From the NCBI RefSeq assembly GCF_003790525.1, contig NZ_CP033635.1: DNA of 64,000 bases; one strand, given 5' to 3'. This document shows positions 25,210-59,613 of the stretch, piece by piece. Numbering within the stretch: position 1 is the first letter of the stretch; each line of letters begins with the position of its first letter. This DNA is from Escherichia coli. Lineage in GTDB: Bacteria > Pseudomonadota > Gammaproteobacteria > Enterobacterales > Enterobacteriaceae. The notes beneath the pieces were generated by a model. The model did no database searches. It was not told the origin of the DNA and worked only from the letters and a program-made list of their open reading frames with translations. The position numbers were made by a program, and so were the translations under genes.

Positions 25210-26190
25210 ATGAACGCAATAATATCGCCCGATTATTACTATGTTCTTACCGTTGCTGGTCAGTCTAATGCCATGGCGTATGGCGAAGGACTGCCATTAC
25301 CGGACAGGGAAGATGCGCCTCATTCCAGAATTAAACAATTAGCGAGATTTGCGCATACGCATCCCGGAGGCCCGTCATGTCACTTTAACGACATTATTCC
25401 TCTGACTCACTGCCCACACGATGTTCAGGATATGCAGGGTTATCACCATCCTCTGGCAACGAATCATCAAACACAGTACGGCACCGTTGGCCAGGCACTG
25501 CATATTGCACGAAAATTACTGCCCTTTATTCCTGATAACGCAGGGGTTCTCATCGTTCCGTGTTGCCGTGGCGGATCGGCTTTTACCGCGGGCAGCGAAG
25601 GGACATATTCAGAACGGCACGGAGCCAGCCATGATGCTTGTCGTTGGGGATCGGATACTCCGCTATACCGGGATTTAGTCAGCAGAACGCGAGCCGCACT
25701 GGCAAAAAATCCGCAGAACAAATTCCTCGGCGTATGCTGGATGCAAGGCGAATTTGACTTAACGACCAGTGACTACGCGTCACACCCTCAACACTTTAAT
25801 CATATGGTTGAAGCCTTTCGTAGGGATCTAAAACAATACCATTCTCAGCTTAATAATATTACTGACGCGCCGTGGTTTTGCGGCGATACCACCTGGTACT
25901 GGAAAGAAAAATTCCCTCATGCGTATGAAGCTATTTATGGCAATTATCAAAATAATGTTTTAGCCAATATTATTTTCGTCGACTTCCAGCAACAAGGTGA
26001 AAGAGGACTGACGAACGCGCCTGTTGAAGACCCGGACGATTTAAGCACGGGATATTACGGTTCAGCGTACCGGTCACCGGAGAGCTGGACGACGGCACTG
26101 CGAAGCAGTCATTTCAGCGCGGCAGCCCGTCGGGGGATTATTTCTGACAAGTTTGTAGAAGCAATTTTGCAGTTTTGGCGCGAAAGGTGA
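25210..26190 (+). CDS. nanS: 9-O-acetyl-N-acetylneuraminate esterase NanS
   Basis: Protein from MNAIISPDYYYVLTVAGQSNAMAYGEG... (326 aa, SGNH-like). Confidence 0.9.
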   Translation: MNAIISPDYYYVLTVAGQSNAMAYGEGLPLPDREDAPHSRIKQLARFAHTHPGGPSCHFNDIIPLTHCPHDVQDMQGYHHPLATNHQTQYGTVGQALHIARKLLPFIPDNAGVLIVPCCRGGSAFTAGSEGTYSERHGASHDACRWGSDTPLYRDLVSRTRAALAKNPQNKFLGVCWMQGEFDLTTSDYASHPQHFNHMVEAFRRDLKQYHSQLNNITDAPWFCGDTTWYWKEKFPHAYEAIYGNYQNNVLANIIFVDFQQQGERGLTNAPVEDPDDLSTGYYGSAYRSPESWTTALRSSHFSAAARRGIISDKFVEAILQFWRER

Positions 26191-26289
26191 GCGTTCATTA
26201 ATTTGATTTATTTGCATCCATCAACGCTTTTAACTGCTCCGGCGTGCGGCACTATAATGGTTTTCACAACAAGGAGCCATTTTCTTATA

Positions 26290-26960
26290 CCACTTTCAGA
26301 GACCATCCGCTTATGCCACCGCCCTCTACGCAACTGTTTGCAGAGCACCTTCCCACCGAGTGGATACAGCACCTCCTGACGCTTTCTGCTCATGCGACCA
26401 TTTGTCGTCTTAACCTGAGCGCGGATGGCGAAGCGGGGATTAGCCTGCTGGCCCGCAGCGCTGTCACCCAGGAGCGCCAGCGCGTGGGGGCCCCCTGGTG
26501 GAATGGCTCTTCCGCCAGACCGCACAGACATGGGGCGCGGAACGTTACCTGAAGGATGACTGGCACGGCCTGCAACTTTTTGCCATTGATGGCGCACAGT
26601 TCAGGACACCTATGAACCTGAGTTGCGCGAATATTATGGCTCTGCCAACACATCCACTGAGCGGCAGAGCGCCTACCCGGTCATGCGTCTGGTGGCGTTA
26701 ATGAATCTGGGAATCACATTCTGCTGAATGCCATGACCTCGGCCTACCGGCGGAGCGATACAGCGTGAGGCAACTAAAGCGGCGTCAGAAATCAGCTTTA
26801 AGTTCGCATTCCAGTTTATCGTGACAGAAATGATAGTGCAGGGAAATACGGCGTCACCAGGAACCATCCCGAAACGGCTGGAGCATCTGCGGGGTGCTCT
26901 GGAAGCGGTGTTCCCACGACTATCAAGGCCGAGGGCTGTTAAGGTATCAAAAACCCGTTA
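26290..26960 (+). pseudogene. Degraded IS4-family transposase remnant (frameshifted fragments)
   Basis: Broken ORFs with IS4-type transposase similarity (FRQTAQTWG...LQLFAIDGAQFRTP compared with the recalled IS4 InsG FTKTAQLWH...LLAIDGVFWRTP); no intact reading frame. Confidence 0.45.
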
Positions 26961-27163
26961 TCCGGTGAAACACAGTGCCGCCCCGCTTAAGTGACGGCAT
27001 TGTGTTTCTGACTGGCCTTAACTTTCCCTGAATCTCTGACGATCCTCACCATTGATATTTTCTTCATTCCTCACCAGAGAAATAAAAAATCACTATACTC
27101 ATCAAAATATGAGATTACATTTATTCAGGCGATCACCTTACTATTTTATACGGAAAATAAATC

Positions 27164-27814
27164 ATGAATATCCGTCAATCATTACATGACCGAATCTATG
27201 CAGAATACCCTCAACAGGCTAAAGATATATTACTGTATTTCCCCACTTATGAAATTATGCCATCGACCATAAAAATGGTTATGATTAATGAGGTGGTAGC
27301 TATAACACCGCAAGAAGATTTTTATACACCAGAGTCTGGTTATTTTACGACTGTCGCCCGACAGTTAGCGCTGGCTGGATTATCGGCAAGTAGTGGCGAA
27401 GTCTTACTCAACCATGGTATCTACCTGACCTCCGCACTGAAACTACCTAAAACACAGATCACAGCCACACCCGCGGAGATCATTCTCTGGTCACCTATTG
27501 TAGAATGGGAGCTCGAACTCTTTGCCAATATAAAAGTTATTTTCGTTGGCGGCGATATCGCGCGAAAATGCCTTAACATCATCGCGAAAAAGCAAACACG
27601 TAAACATGCCATCCCTTCAACTCCGACGTACAAACTGATGAATAGCGAATTAGTCTGGAAAGGAATAAGCATACTTCCTGGATATATTCTTACCGGAAAA
27701 AACCTGCTCATTGAAAAGTCAAAAATCGAAATGAATGTCGAACAATTAAGAAAAGGAATTGCGATTTATCGCAATAGTAACAGTAACCATACGAATAATT
27801 CAGTTCATGAATAA
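27164..27814 (+). CDS. Hypothetical protein (216 aa) in an AT-rich segment
   Basis: Intact ORF; no motif confidently recognised. Confidence 0.4.
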   Translation: MNIRQSLHDRIYAEYPQQAKDILLYFPTYEIMPSTIKMVMINEVVAITPQEDFYTPESGYFTTVARQLALAGLSASSGEVLLNHGIYLTSALKLPKTQITATPAEIILWSPIVEWELELFANIKVIFVGGDIARKCLNIIAKKQTRKHAIPSTPTYKLMNSELVWKGISILPGYILTGKNLLIEKSKIEMNVEQLRKGIAIYRNSNSNHTNNSVHE

Positions 27815-28270
27815 GAGATGAATCATTAATAACAAGAAATCACTGACAAACCACCTGTAAAAGGTCAATCATTTTAGTTCAATTTCCTTTGTCATGATTA
27901 TATTTTTATCGTCCTGACGATACTATTAACAATTACAATATTTATACCCTCCCCAGAACAAACAGAAAAGAACTCATACATTCGTTTATAATTCTGGTAA
28001 TCCTGGCATCATACGTTTAAAATTTAAGGTGTTTGTTTTATAATCATGATTCCAAAGACTATTGGTCACCAGAAAATGCCAGCCTTTTCGTGCCAGCTAT
28101 ATTTGTCCAGTGTGTTACCCCATCCAAAAATCATCCACATCCTGATGTTACGTTAGATATAGAGAAAACAGGTTGTACTGTGCAATATGCTAACCGCATA
28201 AGCGAATATAATTTCTAAGCTGATATTGTCTGGCTGTTGGGAGCTAAACAATATAAATATCGCCAGTTGC

Positions 28271-28312
28271 CAGAACGGTTATATAGACCAGGAGCGTTTC
28301 GGCTCCTGGTCT
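28271..28312 (-). terminator. Stem-loop terminator candidate at the 3' end of the four-gene operon
   Basis: 11-bp perfect stem agaccaggagc / gctcctggtct with 6-nt loop, just downstream of the UvrD-like gene stop. Confidence 0.4.
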
Positions 28313-28327
28313 GTTTCGGACATATTA

Positions 28328-58145: not shown

Positions 58146-58156
58146 ATTCCGAAACT

Positions 58157-58198
58157 CCGTGAAAGTTAAGACTTTCACGGAAGATAAATAAAATTTTC
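58157..58198 (+). terminator. Intrinsic terminator candidate downstream of zorE
   Basis: ccgtgaaagt / actttcacgg 10-bp stem with 4-nt loop followed by an A/T-rich tract. Confidence 0.45.
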
Positions 58199-58254
58199 CT
58201 GATTTGTGACTCAAATTACAAAAGTCGTTTATGGCATAACTTGTCTGTTTTTTT

Positions 58255-58273
58255 GGTGTAATAGGTATAAAGG
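58255..58273. promoter_or_regulatory. Orphan GGTATA-repeat (NanR operator-like) site upstream of the truncated nanM duplicate
   Basis: ggtgtaataggtataaagg, resembling the site at 22864-22884. Confidence 0.4.
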
Positions 58274-58354
58274 CATATGCTATGGTTAGCCTTATATTTA
58301 AAACTTTCCTCATACGGGTGAAGGTTAAAGCTTGGTAGATAGGTTACAGTCACA

Positions 58355-58965
58355 ATGAATAAAGCAATAACGGTGCTTGCTATAATGATGGCTTCATTTT
58401 CCGTAAATGCGTATGTATTACCGGAAACGCCTGTGCCATTTAAAAGTGGTACCGGAGAAATTGATAACAACACTGTCTACATTGGTTTAGGTAGCGCAGG
58501 TACGGCATGGTACAAGCTGGAGAAACAGACCAAAGATAAAAAAATGGACAGCGTTAGCTGCATTTCCTGGTGGACCGAGAGATCAAGCAACCTCTGCATT
58601 TATTGATGGCAATCTGTATGTGTTTGGCGGCATTGGCAAAAACAGCGAGGGCTTGACTCAGGTATTTAATGACGTACACAAATACAACCCCAAAACCAAT
58701 AGCTGGGTTAAATTGATGTCGCACGCGCCGATGGGCATGGCGGGTCATGTGACATTTGTACACAACGGCAAGGCTTATGTTACTGGCGGTGTTAACCAGA
58801 ATATCTTCAACGGCTATTTTGAAGATCTTAACGAAGCTGGAAAAGATTCAACATACCGAACGCCGGAGAACTGGACGACGACACCACGAAGCAGTCATTT
58901 CAGTCGGGGGATGATTGTAGACAAATTTGTTGACGCTATTTTGCGGTTTTGGCGTGAAGGGTGAG
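58355..58965 (+). pseudogene. Truncated, frameshifted duplicate of nanM fused to the 3' end of nanS
   Basis: N-terminal NanM-like sequence with a +1 frameshift in a poly-A run; continues NanM-like to ...EAGKDST, then jumps to NanS C-terminal sequence; 3' flank matches the nanS 3' flank at 26196-26250. Confidence 0.8.
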
Positions 58966-58971
58966 CATTCA

Positions 58972-59613
58972 TTAATTTGCATCCATCAACGCTTTTAACT
59001 GCTCCGGCGAAAACGGTGGTTTGCGTCGGTGCAACATCGCATGGCAATTAGGGCACACAGGAAGCAAATCATTAACTGGATCCAGCTGGTAATCCTCTTT
59101 AATGGCTGAAAGCGGCACCAGGTGATGCATATGGATAAAACCCTCAGCGATATCGCCATAGATCTTCACCAGATCAACGCCGCATACGTTGCACTGGCAT
59201 CCATGATGTTCGACCGCTTTATCTCGGGCCTTTTTATCGCGTTCATAGCGGTTTACTGTCACCTTTATCGCCGCACCTTCAACGTATGTCTCCTGCGACG
59301 GCAACTCATCCGGGAACAGAACGTCGGCTATGGGAGCCGCAGCGGCTTTATCCTGATGAATATGAAATCCCTGCTCTATGAGTAGTTTGACGCATTTAGA
59401 TTTTATTCCGCCGGTGAAATCCGCAGGGGTAAATTGCGTCCCCGTCATCAATGTCGCTGCGATGCCAGCAATCGCCTTCGAGGGGTAACGTCGGCCATGA
59501 TATTCAATCTTATACAACCGCGCAGGCTGGAACTGATGAGTTTCTCCCGCATCCCATAAATGGATAGCTTCGATGATATACCGCCGCGGAAGATGATCGG
59601 GGAGTTTATTCAT
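58972..59613 (-). CDS. HNH endonuclease-domain protein (213 aa), McrA-like architecture
   Basis: C-terminal HNH motif CQCNVCGVDL...HMHHLVPLS...NDLLPVCPNCHAMLH; N-terminal putative DNA-recognition domain. Confidence 0.65.
   Translation of the reverse strand: MNKLPDHLPRRYIIEAIHLWDAGETHQFQPARLYKIEYHGRRYPSKAIAGIAATLMTGTQFTPADFTGGIKSKCVKLLIEQGFHIHQDKAAAAPIADVLFPDELPSQETYVEGAAIKVTVNRYERDKKARDKAVEHHGCQCNVCGVDLVKIYGDIAEGFIHMHHLVPLSAIKEDYQLDPVNDLLPVCPNCHAMLHRRKPPFSPEQLKALMDAN

What the first reader, a model, noticed from the sequence alone, without database searches (positions are those of the whole stretch)
26160..59030. About 32-kb island inserted downstream of nanS and bracketed by diverged nanM/nanS duplicates
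The 3' end of nanS and its downstream flank (26160-26250) recur at 58930-59030, and a truncated, frameshifted nanM copy sits at 58355-58860. Everything between is accessory. No integrase or att-like site is visible, so exchange by homologous recombination through flanking nan sequence is the likeliest route. From memory, K-12 carries only a degraded helicase pseudogene (yjhR) at this position, which may be a remnant of the UvrD-like gene here.
Basis: partly seen in the sequence, partly recalled or inferred. Interest (0 to 1): 0.7.

Follow-up and report, generated by a model that had tools for sequence, protein, structure and literature searches.

The report
Known phage-defence island with nan-gene scar
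This is the already published E. coli anti-phage defence island (Zorya II + Druantia III + ARMADA II, "O-island 172"); the duplicated sialic-acid (nan) gene fragments at its edges are real and seem to be the scar of the recombination that put it there.

Summary
The window is E. coli SMS-3-5. A 32,765-bp accessory block (26245-59009) lies between nanS and an HNH/phosphorothioate-DNA restriction gene pair. To its left is the intact nanC-nanM-nanS cluster. At its right end is a decayed second copy: a porin-gene tail, a frameshifted nanM 5' part and a nanS 3' tail.

The cargo is the published defence array: ARMADA II (armDCBA), Druantia III (druEH) and Zorya II (zorA2B2E). SMS-3-5 is named as a carrier in the literature, so the island is already known. 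About 10% of complete E. coli genomes carry it.

What I add:
- The left junction is illegitimate: 38 bp of the HNH gene joined to the inside of a truncated IS4-family remnant.
- The right copy has decayed by different deletions in different lineages.
- In Escherichia sp. E1V33 the array lies between uxuA and a single intact nanM, with no gntP-fim-nanC.
- Copies carried on tRNA-Phe mobile elements keep the nanM scar plus 18 bp of chromosomal sequence, so they were captured from the chromosome.

The suggested link to K-12 yjhR is refuted.

The parts
23303..24019 (+). nanC, resident porin gene, left of the duplicated segment
   Evidence: RefSeq annotation; protein identical to K-12 NanC WP_001295734.1
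24039..25145 (+). nanM, resident intact copy (left copy of the repeat)
   Evidence: NCBIfam N-acetylneuraminate epimerase, 603.6 bits against a cut-off of 416; 98.2-98.7% identical to nanM of other E. coli
25183..26190 (+). nanS, resident intact 335-aa ORF (left copy of the repeat)
   Evidence: ORF list; collinear with K-12 nanS; the 3' end is of the usual E. coli type
26207..26244 (-). Orphan 3'-terminal 38 bp of an HNH-endonuclease gene; end of the left repeat copy and the exact left junction
   Evidence: Alignment with the empty-site strains GPEC996 and PK8566 and with the right copy; identical junction in O157:H7
26245..27000 (.). IS4-family (insZ-like) transposase remnant. It lacks about 50 bp of its left end, has internal deletions and keeps an intact right end
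   Evidence: Alignment with the K-12 insZ region; annotated as a frameshifted pseudogene; 92% megablast hits to IS4-family transposase pseudogenes
27164..27814 (+). Hypothetical 216-aa gene, absent from O157; a 77%-identical fragment is present in the E1V33-like locus
   Evidence: (no NCBIfam hit)
28328..30442 (-). armD, UvrD/GajB-like helicase of ARMADA type II
   Evidence: Pfam UvrD-helicase and UvrD_C; PADLOC GajB hits; 99.6% identical to O157 ArmD
30439..36780 (-). armC, YprA-family helicase-nuclease of ARMADA type II
   Evidence: PADLOC DruE-like partial hits; Pfam DEAD, Helicase_C and MZB (DUF1998) on identical-length homologues; 99.5% identical to O157 WP_000937974.1, the ARMADA II representative of Bell et al.
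36780..41702 (-). armB, large SAM-dependent DNA methyltransferase of ARMADA II, with a swapped variable module at about 37337-38707
   Evidence: PADLOC type IIG-like profile, 934 bits, plus DrmMI and PglX hits; 83.9% identical to O157 ArmB; no nucleotide homology to E1V33 in 37337-38707
41705..44563 (-). armA, SNF2/BrxHII/DrmD-like helicase of ARMADA II
   Evidence: PADLOC DrmD 332 bits, BrxHII 200 bits; 100% identical to O157 ArmA
44787..51101 (-). druE, Druantia type III helicase-nuclease
   Evidence: PADLOC DruE3 2180 bits, full length; 99.1% identical to O157 DruE
51101..54460 (-). druH, Druantia type III (STY4851/ECs_5259 family)
   Evidence: PADLOC DruH3 2541 bits, full length; RefSeq name
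54672..56324 (+). zorA2, Zorya type II
   Evidence: NCBIfam equivalog NF041792, 1139 bits against a cut-off of 700
56331..57038 (+). zorB2, Zorya type II
   Evidence: NCBIfam NF041787, 443.8 bits against a cut-off of 400
57042..58145 (+). zorE, Zorya type II HNH effector
   Evidence: NCBIfam NF041791, 691 bits against a cut-off of 600
58146..58338 (+). Spacer ending in a strongly diverged porin-gene 3' tail (...IRVKVKAW*). It holds the position nanC holds upstream of nanM and is conserved in all array carriers, including Escherichia sp. E1V33
   Evidence: Translation; alignments
58355..58852 (+). nanM', right-hand copy: 5' 497 bp, frameshifted (type A remnant)
   Evidence: 95% identical to 24039-24535; NCBIfam nanM partial hit; pseudogene in RefSeq; the same junction occurs in 92 genomes
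58847..58964 (+). 'nanS, right-hand copy: 3' tail only. It is a divergent allele that shares a 12-bp deletion and an 8-substitution motif with E1V33
58972..59613 (-). HNH endonuclease (ScoMcrA_N-type), the first gene of the right flank; also present in island-free strains
   Evidence: RefSeq annotation; present in GPEC996; Pfam on a homologue
59750..60622 (+). Phosphorothioated-DNA-binding restriction endonuclease (SBD-HNH), a right-flank gene shared with most E. coli
   Evidence: RefSeq annotation; Pfam DNA-SBD_ScoMcrA + HNH_2 on homologues; matched in most genomes

Best explanation
What it is (shown). The interval is the Zorya II - Druantia III - ARMADA II anti-phage defence array, known as OI-172 in O157:H7, in E. 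coli SMS-3-5. It lies between nanS and the HNH / PT-DNA restriction gene pair, at the nanS-proximal edge of the leuX tRNA hypervariable region.

What it does (from the literature on near-identical copies). There are three nuclease/helicase-based defence systems. In Zorya II, ZorAB is a membrane motor/sensor and ZorE is a nickase. [quoted passage not shown] ARMADA II comprises an SNF2 helicase, a methyltransferase, a YprA helicase-nuclease and a UvrD helicase. [quoted passage not shown]

How it got there (inferred). The array has an alternative chromosomal home in which its right flank is porin'-nanM-nanS-HNH-PT-RE. Escherichia sp. E1V33 shows this state: the array lies between uxuA and a single intact nanM, with no gntP-fim-nanC. 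The E. coli configuration arose once, when that architecture was joined to the usual fim-nanCMS architecture. One side of the join used homology in the nan/HNH/PT-RE flank. The other side was an illegitimate join (HNH' 38 bp | truncated IS4-family remnant). This left two nan copies in direct orientation.

The redundant right copy then decayed by independent deletions: type A in SMS-3-5, type B in O157, and a third state in E1V33. The haplotype spread within E. coli mainly by homologous recombination in the conserved flanks. It was also captured secondarily, together with its nanM scar, between IS elements on tRNA-Phe-integrating mobile elements.
For: Identity of the cargo:
- Zorya II NCBIfam equivalogs score above their cut-offs.
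- PADLOC gives full-length DruH3 and DruE3 matches.
- Eight of the nine proteins are 97.8-100% identical to O157 (ArmB 83.9%), and O157 ArmC is the published ARMADA II representative.
- SMS-3-5 is named as a carrier. Function has been shown experimentally in O157 and ATCC 8739.

Site:
- The empty site reads nanS-HNH-PT-RE-678aa-leuX.
- Some carriers have no integrase between the array and leuX (L009, L012, L015, L018).
- No leuX-derived repeat lies in the window.

Single origin:
- SMS-3-5 and O157 share the identical left junction.
- 447 genomes span that junction.

Decay of a once fuller right copy:
- Type A and type B remnants overlap but carry different deletions.
- E1V33 keeps a full-length nanM.

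Alternative architecture:
- The E1V33-like locus reads uxuR-uxuB-uxuA-421aa-armDCBA-druEH-zorABE-nanM-'nanS-'HNH-PT-RE-yjhR.
- The array is 97.3-98.3% identical to SMS-3-5, against 94.8% for uxuAB, 87.7% for uxuR and 91% for nanM. Identity falls off inside nanM.
- The right-copy nanS tail shares a 12-bp deletion and a sequence motif with E1V33.

Capture from chromosome to mobile element:
- PK8566 and L038 retain the type-B deletion junction plus 18 bp of PT-RE upstream DNA before IS5.
- In PK8566 the element abuts yghD/gsp; I take this to be the pheV tRNA-Phe site from memory (no tRNA gene was seen). Related copies carry AlpA and Rep genes.

Counts of complete genomes: 92 type A, 356 chromosomal type B, 110 type B + IS5.
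Against: - The direction of the founding event is unresolved. Either the array haplotype entered a fim-bearing E. coli, or fim-nanCMS entered an array-bearing lineage.
- The SMS-3-5 right-hand nanM' is E. coli-like (95%), not E1V33-like (86%). Its 5' 200 bp carries about 14 private substitutions. E1V33 is therefore not the direct donor, and gene conversion or an unsampled donor has to be invoked.
- The E1V33 state could be derived from an E. coli-like state by deletion of gntP through hyp216.
- Integrase pseudogenes lie next to PT-RE in O157 and several other carriers, and about 8 kb beyond the window in SMS-3-5. That fits the published model of an immobilised tRNA-Leu element.
- I observed no recombination event directly. 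Anti-phage activity of the SMS-3-5 copy itself has not been tested.
Confidence: 0.6

Rival explanations
1. Immobilised tRNA-Leu element (the model of Bell et al.). The array arrived as cargo of a prophage/satellite-like element that integrated site-specifically at leuX with its own integrase. It later lost its integrase and att sites. On this view the nan fragments are incidental.
For: The site is the leuX hypervariable region. Integrase fragments lie next to PT-RE in O157, L010, L011 and L016, and about 8 kb beyond the window in SMS-3-5. Mobile-element-borne arrays exist at tRNA-Phe. This is the published interpretation.
Against: Site-specific integration at leuX does not duplicate 2.9 kb of nan DNA lying 5 kb or more from the tRNA. 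The array is separated from leuX by HNH, PT-RE and a 678-aa gene, all of which also occur in array-free genomes. Minimal-context carriers have no integrase at all. No leuX repeat lies in the window. The copies on mobile elements carry chromosomal scars, which shows capture from the chromosome rather than delivery to it. In E1V33 the array sits between uxuA and nanM.
Confidence: 0.15
2. Campbell-type integration. A circular intermediate carrying the array plus a porin'-nanM-nanS-HNH' segment recombined once, by RecA-dependent homologous crossover, with the resident nan locus. The HNH'|IS' join is then the closure junction of the circle.
For: A single crossover predicts exactly this topology: the left copy ends where the circle's homology ended (inside HNH) and the right copy starts where it began (inside the porin gene). 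The mosaic divergence of the right copy could reflect the position of the crossover. Array copies on excisable elements do carry nan DNA.
Against: The known copies on mobile elements carry the already decayed type-B scar. That scar is too short and lacks nanS/HNH', so they descend from the chromosomal state and cannot be its ancestors. No circle with the HNH'|IS' closure junction was found outside the nan locus. The final structure cannot be told apart from one-sided homologous plus illegitimate recombination.
Confidence: 0.15
3. Local tandem duplication of nanC-nanM-nanS-HNH in an E. coli ancestor, followed by insertion of the array between the copies and decay of one copy.
For: The repeats are direct and in the same order. 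The middle of nanM' is 98% identical to the resident copy.
Against: The porin tail of the right copy is only about 65% like the nanC tail. Its nanS tail carries a 12-bp deletion and a motif shared with a different species (E1V33), not with E. coli nanS. E1V33 has the array next to a single nanM and no left copy.
Confidence: 0.05
4. Assembly artefact or chance similarity.
For: None.
Against: E-values are 0 and 1.8e-39. The copies are diverged. The same junctions occur in 92, 356 and 110 independent complete genomes.
Confidence: 0.01

Closest known systems
OI-172 defence island of E. coli O157:H7 EDL933 / NCTC 12900: Zorya II - Druantia III - ARMADA II array (Bell et al. bioRxiv 10.1101/2025.09.15.676423; Li et al. 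bioRxiv 10.1101/2025.09.22.677730)
   Same: Same nine genes in the same order and orientation. Protein identity is 97.8-100% for eight of the nine. Same left junction with nanS and same chromosomal site. SMS-3-5 is listed as a carrier.
   Different: ArmB is only 83.9% identical, with a swapped variable module. SMS-3-5 keeps hyp216, the HNH gene and a type-A nan remnant. O157 lacks hyp216 and HNH and has the type-B remnant.
tRNA-Phe / tRNA-Leu integrating satellite-like elements that carry the array (Bell et al., Fig. 5)
   Same: Same cargo. Such elements, with AlpA, Rep-like and CbtA/CbeA modules, were seen here in PK8566-like genomes.
   Different: The SMS-3-5 copy has no integrase, excisionase, Rep gene or att repeat within the island. 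Copies on these elements carry a nanM/PT-RE scar that marks them as derived from the chromosomal locus.
K-12 KpLE2 / leuX region (nanS-ythB-PT-RE fragment-yjhR...)
   Same: Same chromosomal interval between nanS and leuX. It shares the PT-RE gene, which survives only as a fragment in K-12.
   Different: K-12 has none of the array. yjhR is an AAA_12 + PLD helicase-nuclease remnant unrelated to ArmD. Its intact 1171-aa form lies beyond PT-RE in the E1V33-like locus.
Homology-facilitated illegitimate recombination, or flank-mediated exchange of genomic islands (a general mechanism, recalled from established knowledge)
   Same: One boundary lies in homologous DNA (nan/HNH/PT-RE) and the other is an arbitrary junction between unrelated sequences. 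High identity is confined to the cargo, and the flanks are lineage-specific.
   Different: This is inferred only from sequence. No transfer experiment was done. The event produced a duplication rather than a replacement.

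Membership tests
Zorya type II | zorA2-zorB2-zorE operon, each protein matching its equivalog model | tested here: met
   NCBIfam scores against cut-offs: ZorA2 1139 / 700, ZorB2 443.8 / 400, ZorE 691.3 / 600. The genes are contiguous on the + strand at 54672-58145.
Druantia type III | Adjacent druH and druE (YprA-family helicase with DUF1998) | tested here: met
   PADLOC DruH3 2541 bits (residues 3-1119 of 1119) and DruE3 2180 bits (9-2105 of 2107). The genes overlap and are co-directional. Pfam DEAD, Helicase_C and MZB on homologues.
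ARMADA type II | Four co-directional genes: armA (SNF2), armB (methyltransferase), armC (YprA-like helicase with C-terminal nuclease), armD (UvrD-like) | tested here: met
   Domain hits. Identity to O157: ArmA 100%, ArmC 99.5%, ArmD 99.6%. O157 ArmC WP_000937974.1 is the paper's representative.
ARMADA type II | [quoted passage not shown] | tested here: inconclusive
   Pfam found nothing significant (no hit below E = 0.1) in ArmD residues 1-240. ArmC residues 2021-2096 hit only a PADLOC ZorE profile and resemble ZorE 279-335. No structure-based test was run.
Defence function (all three systems) | Protection against phage infection | not testable with these tools
   Shown experimentally for near-identical copies in NCTC 12900, ATCC 8739 and EDL933, not for SMS-3-5.
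tRNA-integrated mobile element (integrase + att direct repeats) | Integrase gene within the element | tested here: not met
   None in 26245-59009. The nearest is a pseudogene about 8 kb beyond the end of the window.
tRNA-integrated mobile element (integrase + att direct repeats) | Direct repeat of the leuX 3' end at the distal boundary | tested here: not met
   No match in the window to the last 25 nt (up to 3 mismatches) or the last 17 nt (up to 2 mismatches) of leuX.
Composite transposon / IS-mediated insertion | IS copies at both ends with a target-site duplication | tested here: not met
   There is only one IS4-family remnant, at the left end, and it is truncated about 50 bp inside its own terminus. 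There is no IS at the right end and no inverted repeats.
Island placed by recombination through flanking homology | High identity confined to the cargo, with lineage-specific homologous flanks across species | tested here: met
   E1V33-like versus SMS-3-5: 97-98% over 28045-58355, dropping to 73-86% inside nanM; uxuAB 94.8%, uxuR 87.7%.
Island placed by recombination through flanking homology | Both junctions lie in homologous DNA | tested here: not met
   The left junction joins HNH' to the interior of an IS remnant. On the left the E1V33-like lineage has an unrelated flank, a 421-aa gene.

The most novel reading that the evidence does not exclude
The nanM/PT-RE scar is a lineage tracer. It would show that every E. 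coli copy of this three-system array descends from one chromosomal founding event at the nan locus, including the copies now riding on tRNA-Phe-integrating mobile elements. On this reading the array's original home is an alternative architecture of the uxuA-nanM interval, one that replaces gntP-fim-nanC in some Escherichia lineages. Defence-island flow here would then run from chromosome to mobile element, the reverse of the published model of delivery by a mobile element followed by immobilisation.
Probability: 0.4. Interest if true: 0.45.

Novelty: already known. Interest (0 to 1): 0.3.

Why it matters
The island itself is established biology. [quoted passage not shown] What could interest specialists is the history written in its edges.

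The duplicated nan fragments, the illegitimate left junction, the E1V33 arrangement and the chromosomal scars on mobile-element-borne copies all point the same way. They suggest this large defence array moves chiefly by recombination in conserved flanks and is only secondarily picked up by integrative elements. That bears on the open question of how integrase-less defence islands spread. It also gives simple junction markers (type A, type B, type B + IS5) for tracking the array across E. coli.

Tried and rejected
- yjhR as a remnant of ArmD: rejected. BLASTP E = 1.2 and different domain architectures.
- A leuX att repeat in the window: none found.
- The left junction as a simple IS insertion: rejected, because the IS remnant is truncated about 50 bp inside its own end.
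- E1V33 as the direct donor of the right-hand nanM: rejected. The SMS-3-5 nanM' is 86% identical to E1V33 nanM but 95% identical to E. coli nanM.
- Walking the E1V33 genome leftwards using ArmA failed, because ArmA is identical in thousands of assemblies. It worked with the lineage-specific DruE, ArmB and the 421-aa protein.
- The cross-genus ZorE scan returned only five species-representative loci. The four outside Escherichia (Serratia, Enterobacter, Pantoea, Yersinia) have no nan genes next to zorE, so they say nothing about the origin of the scar.
- The Hochhauser et al. 2023 hotspot paper does not mention leuX, nanS or fimB in its main text.

Full report
**Source and layout.** The window is E. 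coli SMS-3-5 (NC_010498.1), in reverse orientation; megablast gives 100% identity. The RefSeq annotation and my own scans give this order:
- uxuR-uxuB-uxuA-gntP-fimH...fimB (window about 7.3-21.8 kb)
- nanC 23303-24019, nanM 24039-25145, nanS 25183-26190
- a truncated IS4-family remnant, 26245 to about 27000
- a 216-aa hypothetical gene, 27164-27814
- four large co-directional genes on the minus strand, 28328-44563
- druE and druH, 44787-54460 (minus strand)
- zorA2, zorB2 and zorE, 54672-58145 (plus strand)
- a nan remnant, 58146-58964
- an HNH endonuclease gene (58972-59613, minus strand) and a phosphorothioated-DNA-binding restriction endonuclease gene (59750-60622)
- further candidate defence genes (JetD domain and others) running off the window.

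**Checking the observation.** The direct repeats are real. Window 24019-24535 matches 58335-58852 at 95% over 518 bp. Window 26061-26244 matches 58847-59009 at 77% over 184 bp with two gaps (E = 1.8e-39). No inverted repeats were found.

The right-hand copy consists of:
- a roughly 190-bp spacer ending in a diverged outer-membrane porin tail (...IRVKVKAW*, stop codon at 58336-58338)
- the same 16-nt intergenic spacing that separates nanC from nanM
- the first 497 bp of nanM, with a +1 A frameshift
- the last 118 bp of nanS and its downstream flank.

Island-free strains such as GPEC996 read straight through from the equivalent of 26244 to 59010. Relative to that empty site the insertion is exactly 26245-59009, which is 32,765 bp.

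The left copy ends 38 bp inside what would be the 3' end of the HNH gene. It is joined there to a point about 50 bp inside the left end of an insZ-like IS4-family element, whose right end is intact. This junction between unrelated sequences is illegitimate. It is not an IS insertion, and O157:H7 has the identical junction.

**What the cargo is.**
- ZorA2, ZorB2 and ZorE pass their NCBIfam equivalog cut-offs.
- DruH and DruE match the PADLOC Druantia III profiles over their full length, at 2541 and 2180 bits.
- The four remaining genes encode an SNF2/DrmD/BrxHII-like helicase, a 1640-aa methyltransferase resembling type IIG, DrmMI and PglX enzymes, a 2113-aa YprA/DruE-like helicase, and a UvrD/GajB-like helicase.

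Bell et al. (bioRxiv 10.1101/2025.09.15.676423) define exactly this four-gene cluster as ARMADA type II (ArmA-D). They describe a conserved Zorya II - Druantia III - ARMADA II array in many E. coli and show anti-phage activity and Druantia-ARMADA synergy. Their ARMADA II representative, WP_000937974.1, is the O157 ArmC that I retrieved.

The SMS-3-5 proteins are 97.8-100% identical to the O157 ones. The exception is ArmB at 83.9%, which has a swapped variable module.

Li et al. (bioRxiv 10.1101/2025.09.22.677730) equate the array with O-island 172 of EDL933. They name SMS-3-5 as a carrier and count 426 carriers among 3,792 genomes. I find most of the ARMADA half in 520 of 5,426 complete genomes and most of the Druantia/Zorya half in 501. 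The island is therefore already known.

**Genomic context.** In a minimal strain the interval reads fim-nanCMS-HNH-PT-RE-hyp-678aa-leuX(tRNA-Leu)-ahr-yjgR. In O157:H7 the array sits between nanS and PT-RE, and integrase-bearing elements lie between PT-RE and leuX. In SMS-3-5 the stretch beyond the window holds Wadjet-like genes, a WYL regulator, an integrase pseudogene, CP4-like modules, Kiwa and a type I restriction-modification system.

Some carriers (L009, L012, L015, L018) have the array in the minimal context, with no integrase anywhere between it and leuX. No copy of the leuX 3' end occurs in the window. The published reading of an immobilised tRNA-Leu element does not by itself explain the position of the array or the nan duplication.

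**The right-hand nan copy is a decaying full copy.** Carriers fall into two remnant types with different deletions:
- Type A (SMS-3-5, L012): nanM positions 1-497, then the nanS tail, HNH and PT-RE.
- Type B (O157 and most others): the first 16 nt of nanM (through AATAAAGCAA), then nanM positions about 354-598, then directly the PT-RE upstream region.

In Escherichia sp. E1V33, a separate GTDB species representative, zorE is followed by the same spacer and porin tail. After that come a complete 368-aa nanM, a nanS tail, a 31-codon HNH tail and PT-RE. The ancestral right copy was therefore at least porin'-nanM-nanS-HNH.

**The E1V33 architecture.** Walking leftwards through that lineage gave uxuR-uxuB-uxuA, a 77%-identical fragment of the hyp216 gene, a 421-aa gene, and then armD...zorE-nanM. 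It has no gntP, fim or nanC and only one nan copy.

Against SMS-3-5:
- the array is 97.3-98.3% identical;
- uxuAB is 94.8% identical, uxuR 87.7% and nanM 91%;
- in 100-bp windows, identity jumps from no homology to 97-100% at about 28080, and on the right it falls from 95-99% to 73-86% inside nanM.

The block about 28045-58355 has thus been exchanged between species, with a right boundary inside homologous nan DNA and a left boundary in non-homologous DNA.

The picture is not simple, however. The SMS-3-5 nanM' is E. coli-like (95%) rather than E1V33-like (86%), with about 14 private substitutions in its first 200 bp. Its nanS tail, on the other hand, shares a 12-bp deletion and an eight-substitution motif with E1V33 and not with E. 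coli nanS. The right copy is a mosaic. E1V33 illustrates the architecture but is not the donor.

**Copies on mobile elements descend from the chromosomal locus.** In PK8566 the array lies far from its own intact nanCMS-HNH'-PT-RE locus. There it sits between IS1 and ISKpn26 inside an element whose far end abuts yghD/gsp, which I take to be the pheV side (tRNA-Phe). Many genomes share this context, with AlpA-like and Rep-like genes.

These copies keep the type-B nanM fragments, the type-B deletion junction and 18 bp of PT-RE upstream sequence (TCTTCACTTGCAGGCTTG) before the IS5 end. In the chromosome that sequence continues into PT-RE, which is also present in array-free strains. The element-borne copy must therefore derive from the chromosomal type-B state.

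Junction-specific searches over complete genomes give 92 with type A, 356 with chromosomal type B and 110 with type B + IS5. The sum of 92 and 356 is 448, which matches the 447 genomes that span the nanS-side left junction. Every junction class found in E. coli carries the scar: the three total 558 genomes, against 501-520 genomes with most of the array.

**Mechanism.** My best reading (confidence about 0.6 for the origin story, above 0.95 for the identity of the island) is a single founding event. It joined the array architecture (array-porin'-nanM-nanS-HNH-PT-RE) to the usual fim-nanCMS-HNH architecture. One side used homology on the nan/HNH/PT-RE side, and the other was an illegitimate join (HNH'|IS'). 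This created the direct duplication. Independent deletions in the redundant copy followed, then spread by flank-mediated homologous recombination and occasional IS-mediated capture onto integrative elements.

A Campbell-type single crossover of a circular intermediate would give the same topology, and I cannot exclude it. A local tandem duplication is unlikely, given the foreign-type alleles in the right copy. An assembly artefact is excluded. The direction of the founding event is open: the array may have entered fim-bearing E. coli, or fim-nanCMS may have entered an array-bearing lineage.

**The yjhR claim.** K-12 yjhR (AAA_12 + PLD domains) shows no significant similarity to ArmD (UvrD-helicase/UvrD_C); BLASTP gives E = 1.2. 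An intact 1171-aa AAA_11/AAA_12/PLD protein lies beyond PT-RE in the E1V33-like locus. K-12 yjhR is most simply a remnant of that gene.

**Verdict.** The island is already published and experimentally characterised, so novelty is low. The nan scar, the illegitimate left junction, the E1V33 architecture and the chromosome-to-element direction of capture are not mentioned in the main text of the two papers I searched for these terms. They are a modest addition for specialists in defence-island mobility.

Noticed in passing
window 37337-38707 (inside armB): Low-GC stretch (0.40-0.42) with no nucleotide homology between the SMS-3-5 and E1V33-like arrays. ArmB is only 83.9% identical to O157 ArmB, while the other eight proteins are 97.8-100% identical. 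It looks like a swapped target-recognition module. Li et al. also note armB variation.
   Followed up: partly
window 30439-30700 (ArmC residues 2022-2077) and 57876-58046 (ZorE residues 279-335): The C-terminal about 57 residues of ArmC are 40% identical to a C-terminal segment of ZorE (E = 8e-8). PADLOC also hits a ZorE profile there. The ARMADA and Zorya effectors in the same island share a small domain.
   Followed up: partly
window 58972-64000 and beyond (L003 39000-49600): Right of the island: a ScoMcrA_N-type HNH gene and an SBD-HNH phosphorothioate-DNA restriction gene, a 332-aa hypothetical, a JetD-domain protein, then 1478-aa, 298-aa and 488-aa proteins and a WYL regulator. This is a further candidate defence cluster, Wadjet-like by gene sizes. 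A tyrosine-integrase pseudogene lies about 8 kb past the end of the window.
   Followed up: partly
L025 1-3320 (E1V33-like genome, SRR8068079): An intact 1171-aa helicase-nuclease (AAA_11, AAA_12, PLDc_2) lies next to PT-RE. K-12 yjhR looks like the C-terminal remnant of this gene.
   Followed up: partly
L034 / L035 (Escherichia sp. E1V33-like lineage): This lineage lacks gntP, the whole fim operon and nanC between uxuA and nanM. The defence array occupies that position.
   Followed up: partly
L008 (plasmid unnamed34 of E. coli HCP8S3_I1, 66 kb): ARMADA II plus a 5'-truncated druE sit on a plasmid record between IS3/IS1 and IS903B elements, so the array is also being moved by IS elements onto plasmids.
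   Followed up: no
window 25183-26190: RefSeq (PGAP) labels nanS 'incomplete, missing C-terminus' in SMS-3-5, K-12 and others, although a 335-aa ORF with a TTG start is open. This is probably an annotation quirk.
   Followed up: no
window 26001-58000: GC content differs strongly between modules: the IS remnant region 0.55, armC up to 0.57, druH and the Zorya genes 0.37-0.39. This suggests the three systems were assembled from different sources before the array became a unit.
   Followed up: no
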